Source: a virus (Duplodnaviria; Heunggongvirae; Uroviricota; Caudoviricetes). From it: 24,775 bases of DNA. This document shows positions 1 to 3,000 of this stretch, piece after piece. Position 1 is the stretch's first letter. Each line of letters opens with the position of its first letter. A program made the position numbers. Location of the stretch: IMG/VR virus record IMGVR_UViG_2541047936_000008, positions 1 through 24,775 of that record; one strand, 5' to 3'.

Positions 1-3000
1 ATGTGGGTCAATAAGTATATTGACGATTGCACTGATGAGGATTTAAACGATCGTGACTTTATTGCATCAGTTGTTGACCGGGCTATTTTTCATTTCGCGA
101 TTAATAGTATATGTAATCCTGGGGATAATAAAGATGCAATGCCCATTGAACAATGTACTTTTGATGTAGAAACTAAGAATGACCTTCCCTCCACGGTTCA
201 GCTATTTTATGAGGAATCTAAGGATAATGAACCTTTAGCGAATATACATTTTCAAGCAATAGGTTCTGGTTTTTTAACGTTTGTTAATGCCTGCCAGGAA
301 CATGATGACAACAGCTTAAAATTATTTGCTTCGCTGTTAATTTCACTTTCATATTCTAGTGCCTACGCAGATTTATCAGAAACAGTGTATATTAATGAAA
401 ATAATGAGAGCTACCTGAAAGCTCAGTTTGAAAAATTATCTCAACGTGATATGAAGAAGTACCTGGGAGAGATGAAGCGTCTGGCTGATGGGGGAGAAAT
501 GAATTTTGATGGCTATCTGGATAAGATGTCACATCTGGTGAATGAAGGAACGCTCGATCCTGATATTTTAAGCAAAATGCGAGATGCTGCACCACAATTA
601 ATTAGCTTCGCGAAGTCGTTTGACCCAACCTCAAAGGAAGAGATTAAAATACTTACAGACACTTCTAAATTAATTTATGATTTGTTCGGGGTTAAATCGG
701 AGAAATAATATGTGAAGTTCTTCGATAGTATGGAAGGCATTATATAAAAGGACCCAATATTTATTGGGTTCTTTTTTCTCTATCAATGCTATTAGCAGGG
801 AGATATATCACCAGAGTTTAATGTGTGATTTTTTATTTATCGTCGAACCTGGATTGTTTATCATTGGCCTTAACAAAGTTAACGGCTAATAAGATTATTT
901 CCATCACTTCGTGAGAGCTTCATGCCTTGAGAGGATCTCAATTTTCTTTTGCAATGAGACAGGCGCTTCCTGTTGTTATGGTATAGTACCCCGCTATTGA
1001 GCCTCCTGAATAGTGATGCTGAATAACATAACCCCATGATATATCGATAAAATAATCTCTACATTTGAAAATGCACGGTAATTCTGAAATGCAAAAAATC
1101 AACCAAACCAGCGCAATGCCTGAAAAAACTGACGTTCACTGGAGTGGTCGGTTTAGCGTTGCACCAATGCTCGATAGGATGTACCGTTTTTGAAAAACAA
1201 GTAGTTATACACTTTGTGGGAGCCTATTGGGAACCCGGTGTTTTCATTTCAAGGTGTAATCCATGCGGGGCATCAGAATGAGATATAATGAGATTTTTAG
1301 TGTTCCGCTTGAGAGTCTATGATGCTTACCCTAGACGAGATAGGTCAATCTGTACGTAACAATATCCAGTTGATTATTGATCATGTCGGCTTACCTCTTG
1401 CTGTTGGTCCGCTCAGTGATGATGATTACAAGATTCTGTGTGGTGGCTATGGTGAGCTTGAATGGGACTATGCGTTAAGCACCTATGGCAACTCCAGAGA
1501 AAAGTATGAGTTCTGCATAAAACTTGTTCAGCAAGGTCGGGTTCAGGGAATACCATCAGGAGCAGCAATTTGTGTTTATGGGGTTGAAGAAAACATCTTT
1601 CGTATCCATATGATCGAAAGGTTTTCTAGAGAAGATGAATCTCACCCATTGAAAGGGCGCATGGTTTTACTCACTCTTATGAGTGCTTTTATATTTTGTA
1701 AAGCTGTTGAATGTAAAGTTGTCCACATTGTAGAGCCAGTACCAGAACTGGTGCAGTATTACGAGTCTTTTGGTTTCCGCATGGAACAGTGCGGTTATGT
1801 GATGTCTGCAGTCATTGATGAGCTGCAGGATATCTTTCTTAAATTTGCTCAGTAGGTATAGACGAGAAGGGTCTACAAATTGTAGGATACCCGTCCAGAT
1901 TACCTTAAAGGTACATCTATGGCAGTCGTTTTGTGCTTAAACTACTAAGAAACGATGTCACCAATCGACATGATCGATTGGCATAAGTTAGCTAAACAAG
2001 CTAGCTTTAAAGAGAGGGTTAGAGACGCCTTTACTGTCTCGGGAGTTTTCTATGAAAGATCAAAAAGCAACCAAGCCACAGGTTAAGTTCGACACAATGA
2101 AAGCATTCGCAGGTATGGGTGCTGCTGTTGAAGTTCTGATGAAGGCTGCTCCTAATGCGTTCACTCACGCTACTGTCTCTGGTAAAGAGCAGCAGGGTAA
2201 GCTTCGTCGTCGCAAAGCAGCATGATCATAGCTGGTGCTTTTTGAAAACCCGCCTTTAGGCGGGTTTTTTCTTTAGTGATGTTCTTTGCCCTTCTGTTTG
2301 CCTGTTCTGACCTGTTCCCACTCGATACGTCCTTCTTCTCGTCTTTTGTCTATGTATTCCGCAAGATCTTGAATATTGATGCAACGTTTTGCTTTTTGTG
2401 ATGTGCCGATGCGATATGTTGGAACGGGCAACTTACAAGCGTTTGCTTTTGCTTCTGCCGTGGCTGGACTCATACCAAAGTATTTTTGACTAACTGCTGA
2501 GAGTTCAATGTTTAGGGTATTGAATTCAGCCATCAGTAAAAACAAGGTATTCATATCATTTCTCCATCATAACCGGCTGCACCCGGTGAGTTACTTATTC
2601 ATTTCAATAATATTATTTTCTATCATTGATTTATTTAAAACCAAAGAAGGAGCAAGATGGTTGTCTATTTTAAATAATGCATAACTTTTAAACCGTTGGT
2701 GATATCCGTAACCAATAAGGATGCTAGAAAAATCTCTTAATTTATCTTCTTTAAGAACATGAAAATGAAATGGGTTGTCGCCATTTATGGACAATGAAGC
2801 ATCTATTATGCAGTATTTCTCTCCGTTGTCATTTGCATAGAAAAAAATATAAGACATTCTGTTTGTTAAGACAATGCCATTAAATTTTATTATGTCTGGA
2901 ATTATTTTGTTTTTCATATTTGGTGCCACATGTTTATTTTCAGAAATACATTTGATTTCATCTCCAGATGTCGTGATTATATAAAAATGAAACTTATCAG

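What the first reader, a model, noticed from the sequence alone, without database searches (positions are those of the whole stretch)
2273..2554. PrtN/AlpA-like regulator far from the integrase: possible excision factor or tail-gene activator
No excisionase-like gene is adjacent to the integrase. The only candidate small winged-helix protein of that type is this PrtN/AlpA-family ORF at the opposite end, an arrangement seen for TorI in KplE1 (CPS-53). Alternatively, by analogy with Pseudomonas PrtN activating pyocin genes under a LexA-like repressor, it could activate the retained tail module.
Basis: inference. Interest (0 to 1): 0.45.

Follow-up and report, generated by a model that had tools for sequence, protein, structure and literature searches.

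The report
RdfN excisionase of a dusA prophage
This small gene most likely encodes the excision helper protein (an RdfN-type recombination directionality factor) of a decayed prophage inserted in the dusA gene. It lies at the opposite end from the integrase only because the phage attachment site sits between the two genes, and both the protein family and this layout are already described.

Summary
The ORF at 2273-2554 (- strand, 93 aa) is real. It matches Pfam PF11112 (PrtN; E 1.7e-22) and PHROG 1300 "excisionase" (E 8e-39).

The window holds a 22.3-kb SfV/mEp460-like prophage remnant (1175-23465) inserted in the 5' end of dusA. In the related free phages mEp460 and SKA5, the same gene and the integrase flank attP about 1.3 kb apart. 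Integration therefore places them at opposite prophage ends.

The protein is 59% identical to RdfN of the Vibrio element IMEVchUSA3. RdfN is a PF11112 protein shown experimentally (Rivard 2021) to be the recombination directionality factor of dusA-specific integrases. The window's integrase is 54% identical to that element's Int.

The gene ends a leftward operon whose promoter carries an operator of the SOS-cleavable cI-like repressor.

The tail-activator idea is not supported. The sheath gene is 5'-truncated, there are no lysis or late-regulator genes, and there are no P-box-like repeats.

Verdict: an ordinary, already described RDF. The excision reading is right and the tail-activator reading is wrong. 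Excision itself was not tested.

The parts
2273..2554 (-). rdfN-like gene: 93-aa PF11112 (PrtN-family) winged-helix protein, inferred recombination directionality factor
2562..2565 (-). Shine-Dalgarno GGAG, 7 nt upstream of the ATG
   Evidence: read directly from the sequence
2244..2269 (.). bidirectional hairpin terminator between rdfN (-) and the 57-aa ORF 2052-2225 (+)
1167..1174 (+). attL crossover core ATGCTCGA. To its left (1068-1174) is the native 5' stub of dusA.
   Evidence: Direct repeat D1, alignment A1. The reconstructed empty site is contiguous and 100% identical in E. coli genomes.
1175..1318 (+). rdfN-side att arm: IHF-like site (about 1193-1210), then two 8-bp direct repeats 11 bp apart, TGGGAGCC-tat-TGGGAACC (1217-1235). 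These are probable Int arm-type sites.
   Evidence: The same architecture, with element-specific repeat sequence, is seen in 15 other elements.
23458..23465 (+). attR crossover core ATGCTCGA. To its left (23359-23457) is the phage-borne surrogate dusA 5' end.
23274..23457 (.). int-side att arm. It carries three copies of GGGAACC (23294-23300 inverted, 23310-23316, 23322-23328) 21-55 bp upstream of the int start codon, where the int promoter must lie. It also carries the surrogate dusA promoter and start.
22176..23273 (-). dusA-specific tyrosine integrase, 365 aa, intact
   Evidence: PF00589. It is 54% identical over 361 aa (E 3e-148) to Int of IMEVchUSA3 and 361/366 identical to the mEp460 integrase.
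23362..24399 (+). dusA (tRNA-dihydrouridine synthase A), the target gene, with its reading frame restored by the phage-borne 5' end
   Evidence: TIGR00742 E 6e-175
5415..5442 (-). pL-like promoter (TTGACA-16-CATAAT) of the leftward operon that ends with rdfN. The operator TGTAY-N7-RTACA lies at 5419-5435, between its hexamers.
   Evidence: 3 operator matches in the window against 0.04 expected
5481..6155 (-). cI-like repressor with Peptidase_S24 autocleavage domain (YmfK-like)
6173..6239 (.). two further operators (6173-6189, 6223-6239) between the repressor and cro-like genes

Best explanation
The ORF encodes the recombination directionality factor (an RdfN-type excisionase) of a defective SfV/mEp460-like prophage integrated in the 5' end of dusA. 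In the circular phage the order is int - attP - (2-3 cargo genes) - rdfN - early-left genes - repressor. Integration through attP therefore puts int next to attR/dusA and rdfN 1.1 kb inside attL. Inferred mechanism: (1) int is expressed from its own promoter inside the att arm. (2) rdfN is the last gene of the leftward early operon, whose promoter carries an operator of the S24 (LexA-like, RecA-cleavable) repressor, so RdfN is made only after SOS derepression. (3) The small winged-helix protein then binds and bends att-arm DNA and directs Int to recombine attL x attR. This releases the 22.3-kb element and restores native dusA. What is shown here: the gene, its family, its orthology to a proven RDF and to that RDF's cognate integrase, the att sites, the attP-straddling layout and the operator-bearing promoter. 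What is inferred: that this particular protein is active, where it binds, and that it is transcribed from pL.
For: 1. Family: PF11112 E 1.7e-22 and PHROG 1300 'excisionase' E 8e-39.
2. Experimental precedent: Rivard et al. 2021 (PMC8409611) showed that deleting rdfN (a 76-aa PF11112 protein) abolishes excision of the dusA-specific element IMEVchUSA3. They also showed that Int plus RdfN alone excise a mini-element, and noted that int and rdfN lie across attP.
3. Orthology: the window protein is 59% identical to that RdfN (sequence from the paper's S1 Dataset). The window Int is 54% identical to its Int.
4. Insertion site: the element sits in dusA. A 117-nt imperfect repeat and the 8-bp core ATGCTCGA mark both ends. 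Joining the flanks recreates an empty site found at 100% identity in E. coli genomes.
5. Layout in free phages: in mEp460 and SKA5 the order is int(-) / dusA-like attP / small ORFs / PF11112 gene(-) / exo ... cI(-). mEp460 gp25 is annotated 'excisionase'.
6. Wider association: of 80 genomic loci with homologues, 33 have a dusA R-F-S-[IV]-A-P-M-[LM]-D motif within 6 kb. In total 36 have that motif and/or an Int_dusA homologue. Farrugia 2015 found prtN homologues in 60 of 94 dusA islands.
8. Regulation: there is a pL-like promoter with an operator, and all four genes from it to rdfN are co-oriented with no strong terminator between them.
Confidence: 0.88

Rival explanations
1. PrtN-like transcriptional activator: after SOS derepression the protein binds promoters of the retained tail module and switches on a tailocin-like particle.
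For: It belongs to the same Pfam family as the P. aeruginosa pyocin activator PrtN. It is also under a LexA-like S24 repressor, as prtN is under PrtR. A long tail-gene block is retained.
Against: The sheath gene starts 827 nt into the 1497-nt gene, so only profile positions 105-168 of Phage_sheath_1 plus the C-terminal domain remain. Lysis, late-regulator and head genes are deleted. The tail block is fused directly to an early gene and has no promoter region of its own. No tandem P-box-like unit (ATTGnn(n)GTnn(n) x2; consensus taken from my own memory of Matsui 1993, as the paper was not held) occurs anywhere in the window. The att-arm repeat pair occurs only at attL. The gene occupies the same attP-proximal position in complete phage genomes. 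Even the P. aeruginosa 'PrtN family' protein I retrieved lies in a dusA prophage next to int.
Confidence: 0.03
2. Dual-function RDF: besides directing excision, the protein binds the int-side att arm and down-regulates int and/or the phage-borne dusA promoter. TorI does this at PintS in KplE1, and P2 Cox acts as both RDF and repressor.
For: The int promoter must lie inside the 185-bp att arm between int and the core, the layout for which Panis et al. 2010 showed repression of intS by IntS and TorI. The best structural match is P2 Cox, a dual RDF/repressor. The family also contains a bona fide transcription factor, PrtN.
Against: There is no direct evidence. RdfN binding sites are not known. 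The repeats overlapping the int upstream region occur on both arms and are more simply Int arm-type sites.
Confidence: 0.2
3. Functionless relic: the ORF is intact by chance in a decaying prophage and is no longer expressed or active.
For: The prophage has lost about 40% of its genome and cannot make particles. An AT-rich foreign ORF has been inserted just upstream of the gene.
Against: The ORF, its SD, the terminator, int, both cores and both arm repeat sets are all intact. The proteins are 96-99% identical to those of the complete phage genome mEp460. The repressor, its three operators and pL are intact.
Confidence: 0.08

Closest known systems
RdfN of IMEVchUSA3 (Vibrio cholerae dusA-specific SGI1-like element; Rivard et al. 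2021, PLoS Genet, PMC8409611)
   Same: Both are PF11112 proteins. They are 59% identical over the whole 76-aa protein and share the N-terminal MNTxFLLMAE and the DLAEYID motif. The cognate integrases are 54% identical. Both elements use the dusA 5' end as target, and in both int and rdfN lie on opposite sides of attP.
   Different: The window protein has a 17-residue basic C-terminal extension. The gene points towards the att end and closes a repressor-controlled phage early operon. In IMEVchUSA3 it points inward and has its own AcaCD-activated promoter. The host element is a myovirus-type prophage remnant, not a mobilizable island.
gp25 'excisionase' of phage mEp460 and the equivalent ORF of phage SKA5
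   Same: Essentially the same gene: 90 of 94 positions (stop codon included) are identical to mEp460 gp25 counted from the conserved MNT start. It has the same neighbours on the att side, the same integrase (361/366) and the same attP.
   Different: Those are complete phage genomes with exonuclease genes upstream of the gene. Here an AT-rich 277-aa ORF replaces them and the late region is deleted.
PrtN, pyocin activator of Pseudomonas aeruginosa (Matsui et al. 1993)
   Same: Same Pfam family. Expression is ultimately under an SOS-cleavable LexA-like repressor.
   Different: PrtN activates transcription at P boxes of an intact tailocin cluster. Here there are no P-box-like repeats, the tail module is broken, and the gene is tied to an integrase and att site. 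I could not retrieve the canonical PrtN sequence, so identity to it was not measured.
TorI / IntS of prophage KplE1 (CPS-53) (Panis et al. 2010, PMC2951348)
   Same: The module layout is the same. int is transcribed from a promoter inside the att region, the RDF gene is uncoupled from int at the other prophage end, and the excision switch rests on RDF expression.
   Different: The protein family differs: no AlpA/Xis Pfam hit here, only PF11112. The integrase lineage and target also differ (argW tRNA versus dusA).
P2 Cox, RdfS, and the Tn916, Pukovnik and GIsul2 excisionases (solved structures)
   Different: No detectable sequence similarity. There is an extra N-terminal helix and a long C-terminal helix (residues 61-91).

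Membership tests
RdfN-type RDFs of dusA-specific integrative elements | Small protein with the PF11112 (PrtN) domain | tested here: met
   E 1.7e-22, full-length profile match
RdfN-type RDFs of dusA-specific integrative elements | Sequence similarity to the experimentally validated RdfN | tested here: met
   59% identity over 76 aa, E 2e-32
RdfN-type RDFs of dusA-specific integrative elements | Cognate integrase of the DusA-associated integrase family | tested here: met
   54% identity over 361 aa to Int of IMEVchUSA3, E 3e-148
RdfN-type RDFs of dusA-specific integrative elements | Element inserted in the 5' end of dusA, with direct repeats and a surrogate dusA 5' end | tested here: met
   Repeat 1068-1184 / 23359-23475 and core ATGCTCGA; the empty site is recreated exactly
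RdfN-type RDFs of dusA-specific integrative elements | int and rdfN on opposite sides of attP in the excised form | tested here: met
   Free phages mEp460 and SKA5. Other family members instead have rdfN convergent with int, so this layout is common but not universal.
RdfN-type RDFs of dusA-specific integrative elements | Required, with Int, for excision | not testable with these tools
   Needs attB/attP PCR with and without the gene
PrtN-type pyocin activators | PF11112 domain | tested here: met
PrtN-type pyocin activators | P boxes (tandem ATTGnn(n)GTnn(n) units) upstream of target tail/lysis genes | tested here: not met
   No run of 2 or more units on either strand. The consensus was recalled from memory because the original paper was not held.
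PrtN-type pyocin activators | Intact tailocin cluster (sheath, tube, baseplate, lysis cassette) as regulatory target | tested here: not met
   The sheath gene is truncated at its 5' end and no lysis genes remain
PrtN-type pyocin activators | Gene directly repressed by an adjacent PrtR-type repressor | tested here: inconclusive
   An S24 repressor and an operator-bearing promoter exist, but they lie 2.9 kb upstream with three genes between
AlpA / lambda-Xis / Tn916-Xis excisionase families (sequence families) | Match to their Pfam models | tested here: not met
   Only PF11112 reported at E <= 0.01. Similarity exists at fold level only.
KplE1-type recombination module organisation | int promoter inside the att region; RDF gene uncoupled from int and at the other prophage end | tested here: met
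   int starts 185 bp from the core, with arm repeats 21-55 bp upstream. rdfN is 1.1 kb inside attL. Promoter activity itself was not tested.

The most novel reading that the evidence does not exclude
The RdfN-type RDF of dusA prophages may also be a transcription factor. It would repress int and/or the phage-borne dusA promoter from sites in the int-side att arm. On this view the pyocin activator PrtN is a domesticated descendant of such an RDF, which would explain why one small family holds both an excisionase and an activator. Nothing here excludes this, but nothing shows it either.
Probability: 0.15. Interest if true: 0.4.

Novelty: already known. Interest (0 to 1): 0.12.

Why it matters
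It matters little beyond correct annotation. E. coli genomes label this gene 'pyocin activator PrtN family protein', which invites the wrong functional reading. The evidence says it should be called an RdfN-type excisionase of a dusA-integrating prophage.

One modest point may be useful. Rivard et al. asked what signal drives rdfN in prophage-like dusA elements. Here the gene closes an operon whose promoter carries an operator of an SOS-cleavable repressor, which gives a directly testable answer: SOS induction.

The remnant keeps int, rdfN and both att sites intact. It may therefore still excise and restore native dusA, even though it can no longer form particles.

Tried and rejected
1. Library searches that gave nothing for the 93-aa protein: NCBIfam, PADLOC and a PDB sequence search with a 22-sequence profile (only SlyA at E 0.77).
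3. P-box search: no tandem units. The original PrtN paper (PMC193209) is not held, so the consensus is from memory.
4. Attempt to fetch canonical P. aeruginosa PrtN for an identity or tree comparison. The P. aeruginosa 'PrtN family' protein recovered (P0079) turned out to be another dusA-prophage gene convergent with int. Canonical PrtN was not obtained, and I ran no further search on it.
5. Attempt to locate RdfN binding sites. The repeats found occur on both arms and change in sequence from element to element. They fit Int arm-type sites. The conserved AAAATGCACG in the int-side arm is just the surrogate dusA start codon region. No RDF site could be assigned.
6. No complete E. coli genome in the collection carries the whole window in one piece, so the exact source strain and this particular deletion were not matched.
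7. tRNA scan: none, so the element is not tRNA-targeted.

Full report
THE OBSERVATION

The ORF at 2273-2554 on the - strand is real. It has 93 codons and an ATG start at 2554. A GGAG lies 7 nt upstream (2565-2562). A G+C-rich hairpin (2244-2269) follows the stop directly and also serves the convergent 57-aa ORF 2052-2225.

It matches Pfam PF11112 (PyocinActivator/PrtN) over the whole profile, with E 1.7e-22 and 79.8 bits against a cut-off of 24.2. It also matches PHROG 1300, labelled 'excisionase', at E 8e-39. Homologues share the N-terminus MNTxFLLMAE and the motif DLAEYID, which fixes the start codon.

No AlpA, Xis or HTH_17-type Pfam family is hit. 'PrtN-family' is therefore correct, and 'AlpA-like' holds only at the level of fold. 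The integrase (22176-23273, -) is indeed at the other end of the element. No other small Xis-like ORF lies beside it or among the other small ORFs I scanned.

WHAT THE WINDOW IS

The left edge carries a DUF2713 (yjbM-like) gene (1-708). The right edge carries dusA (23362-24399; TIGR00742, E 6e-175). Between them lies a prophage related to SfV, mEp460 and SKA5.

- A 117-nt imperfect direct repeat (1068-1184 and 23359-23475, 81% identical) is the native 5' end of dusA on the left and a phage-borne surrogate 5' end on the right.
- Alignment with the attP regions of mEp460 and SKA5 places the crossover in the 8-bp core ATGCTCGA, at 1167-1174 (attL) and 23458-23465 (attR).
- Joining 821-1174 to 23466-23820 recreates a sequence found uninterrupted at 100% identity in E. 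coli genomes. 3635 of 5426 genomes have the site in one piece. The element is therefore 1175-23465, 22.3 kb.
- It is a remnant. At 9105-9108 a yfdN/PerC-like early gene, 188 nt into its frame, is fused to the tail-sheath gene 827 nt into its 1497 nt. This removes the late regulators, lysis, terminase and head genes.
- The surviving sheath fragment covers only positions 105-168 of Phage_sheath_1 plus the C-terminal domain.

WHY THE GENE IS FAR FROM INT

In the complete phage genomes mEp460 and SKA5 the order is dinI(-), int(-), a short dusA-like stretch (attP), two or three small + strand ORFs, the PF11112 gene(-), exonuclease genes and so on up to cI(-). int and the PF11112 gene are about 1.3 kb apart with attP between them. 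Recombination through attP necessarily sends them to opposite ends of the prophage.

RefSeq already calls mEp460 gp25 'excisionase'. It is identical to the window protein at 90 of 94 positions, counted from the conserved start and including the stop codon. The two integrases are identical at 361 of 366 positions.

EXPERIMENTAL PRECEDENT

Farrugia et al. 2015 (PMC4482086) defined the dusA-associated integrases. They noted a prtN homologue in 60 of 94 dusA islands, with unknown role.

Rivard et al. 2021 (PMC8409611) named this gene rdfN in the V. cholerae element IMEVchUSA3 and tested it.

- Deleting rdfN abolishes excision and mobilization.
- Expression from pBAD restores excision.
- A mini-element with only int excises only when rdfN is supplied.
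- They remarked that int and rdfN lie across attP and that rdfN is most likely the RDF of all dusA-specific elements.

From their S1 Dataset I took the RdfN and Int sequences. The window protein is 59% identical to RdfN over its full 76 residues (E 2e-32). The window integrase is 54% identical to Int over 361 residues (E 3e-148). The recombination module is therefore orthologous as a pair.

INDEPENDENT CHECK OF THE ASSOCIATION

A scan of one genome per species returned 287 relatives, and 80 loci were kept with 6-kb flanks.

- In 33 loci a dusA motif (R/K-F-S-[IV]-A-P-M-[LM]-D) lies within the flanks. I estimate roughly 0.1 chance matches per locus for the bare five-residue core, and every hit also carries the extended dusA context.
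- Counting Int_dusA homologues as well (30-69% identity), 36 of 80 loci show the link.

Three layouts occur:

1. rdfN followed by attL and the truncated native dusA stub, as in this window (about 20 loci).
2. rdfN convergent with int, followed by attR and full dusA (L018, L067, L084 and others, plus four P. aeruginosa prophage loci).
3. The stub upstream and rdfN pointing inward, as in the Vibrio islands (L046, L049, L052 and L004).

The remaining 44 loci showed neither feature within 6 kb. I did not look further out.

FOLD

An AlphaFold2 model built from a 22-sequence alignment is confident (mean pLDDT 89). It has a short N-terminal helix, a three-element helix-turn-helix region, a beta wing and a long C-terminal helix at residues 61-91.

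Foldseek ranks P2 Cox first, but nothing is significant there, and the sequence search of PDB finds nothing. The fold evidence is therefore supportive, not decisive.

REGULATION (INFERRED)

The repressor gene (5481-6155, -) encodes a Peptidase_S24 protein. Just downstream of it on the - strand come a terminator and then a near-consensus promoter, TTGACA-16-CATAAT (5442-5415).

The palindrome TGTAY-N7-RTACA occurs exactly three times in the window. One copy lies between the hexamers of that promoter (5419-5435). The other two lie in the repressor/cro intergenic region (6173-6189 and 6223-6239). Chance expectation is 0.04.

All genes from that promoter to the ORF are on the - strand (yfdP-like, yfdQ, a 277-aa ORF, then rdfN). 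No convincing terminator lies between them, and the hairpin terminator comes right after rdfN. The likely chain is: SOS, then repressor cleavage, then the leftward transcript, then RdfN.

int starts 185 bp from the core and must use a promoter inside the att arm. This is the organisation for which Panis et al. 2010 showed, in KplE1, that int is autoregulated and that the excision switch depends on RDF expression. It also bears on the question Rivard et al. left open, namely what drives rdfN in prophage-like dusA elements.

ATT ARMS

On the rdfN side, 16 elements (this window and 15 loci) share one plan. After the core comes an IHF-like site (for example AAATCAATAAGTTA), and about 43 bp from the core come two 8-bp direct repeats 11 bp apart. 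Here they read TGGGAGCC-tat-TGGGAACC (1217-1235). The repeat sequence differs between elements (GGGGTGC, GGTGTAC, GGGTTCC).

On the int side, each element has one inverted and two or more direct copies of its own 7-9-mer, 20-60 bp upstream of the int start. Here GGGAACC occurs three times at 23294-23328.

For the two elements where I have both arms (this window and L075), the motif is the same on both arms. By analogy with lambda P and P' arms these are best read as Int arm-type sites. I could not assign RdfN sites.

THE TAIL-ACTIVATOR ALTERNATIVE

PrtN activates an intact pyocin cluster through P boxes once PrtR is cleaved. Several facts argue against the same role here.

- The sheath is truncated and there is no lysis cassette or late regulator.
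- The tail block is fused to an early gene with no promoter region of its own.
- No tandem P-box-like unit exists anywhere in the window (the consensus is from memory, because the original paper was not held).
- The att-arm repeat pair is unique to attL.
- The gene occupies the same attP-proximal place in complete phages.

I give this reading about 3%. A regulatory side role at the int or dusA promoter, as for TorI or Cox, is not excluded (about 20%), but it is untested.

COMPARISON AND VERDICT

The gene works like, and by every sequence and context criterion I could test belongs to, the RdfN-type RDFs of dusA-specific elements. The one defining property I cannot test is excision itself.

It shares module layout, but not protein family, with TorI/IntS of KplE1. 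It shares Pfam family, but not context or plausible targets, with PrtN.

The excision-factor reading is supported and the tail-activator reading is not. The protein family, its RDF function and the attP-straddling layout are all published, and a near-identical phage gene is already annotated 'excisionase'. The finding is therefore ordinary: interest 0.12, novelty 'already known'. The small residual value is the misleading 'pyocin activator' label in E. coli annotations and the testable SOS/repressor route to rdfN expression.

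Noticed in passing
window 8915-9774 (junction 9105-9108): A deletion joins a yfdN/PerC-like early gene to the 3' 40% of the tail-sheath gene at a 4-bp overlap. It removes late regulators, lysis, terminase and head genes, leaving a tail block that cannot make a contractile tail.
   Followed up: yes
window 18763-20795: The tail-fibre segment 18763-20175 is inverted relative to phage SKA5. It lies next to a resolvase/invertase gene (20193-20795, PF00239 + HTH_7), so it is probably a Gin/Hin-type host-range switch caught in the other orientation.
   Followed up: partly
window 1068-1174 and 23359-23465: The phage carries its own dusA-like 5' end (81% identical to the native one), which restores a full dusA ORF after integration. 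The native promoter and first ~35 codons are left as a stub at attL. About a third of complete E. coli genomes (1791 of 5426) do not have this site in one piece.
   Followed up: partly
window 2591-3424 (-): An AT-rich (29-36% GC) 277-aa ORF lies immediately upstream of rdfN. It matches only PHROG 14996 (unknown function), with no significant Pfam match and no PADLOC hit. It sits where mEp460 and SKA5 have exonuclease genes, and looks like an inserted cargo gene, possibly a defence or exclusion gene.
   Followed up: partly
window 1319-2225: The cargo between attL and rdfN varies between relatives. Here it is a 178-aa PHROG 4350 protein plus a 57-aa ORF. E. coli YF-1 has a Panacea-domain (SocA-like antitoxin) gene plus another ORF at the same place, and SKA5 carries unnamed ORFs of the same sizes there.
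   Followed up: no
window 1217-1235 and 23294-23328; loci L005-L084: Element-specific 7-9-mers mark both att arms of dusA elements. There are two direct copies 11 bp apart about 43 bp from the core on one arm, and one inverted plus two direct copies just upstream of int on the other. The sequence changes between elements, so they are probably Int arm-type sites overlapping the int promoter.
   Followed up: partly
window 5419-5435, 6173-6189, 6223-6239: Three copies of the palindrome TGTAY-N7-RTACA, and no others in 24.8 kb (0.04 expected), mark the leftward promoter and the repressor/cro intergenic region. They are the likely operators of the S24 repressor.
   Followed up: yes
loci L085-L088 (Pseudomonas aeruginosa): A P. 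aeruginosa protein named 'pyocin activator PrtN family' (P0079) lies in a dusA-integrated prophage, convergent with the integrase. This suggests that proteins carrying this name can be excisionases rather than pyocin activators.
   Followed up: partly
window 20822-22114 (-): A DUF4145 protein (231 aa) and a DinI homologue sit between the invertase and int. They are typical att-proximal cargo, and DinI is shared with mEp460 and SKA5.
   Followed up: no
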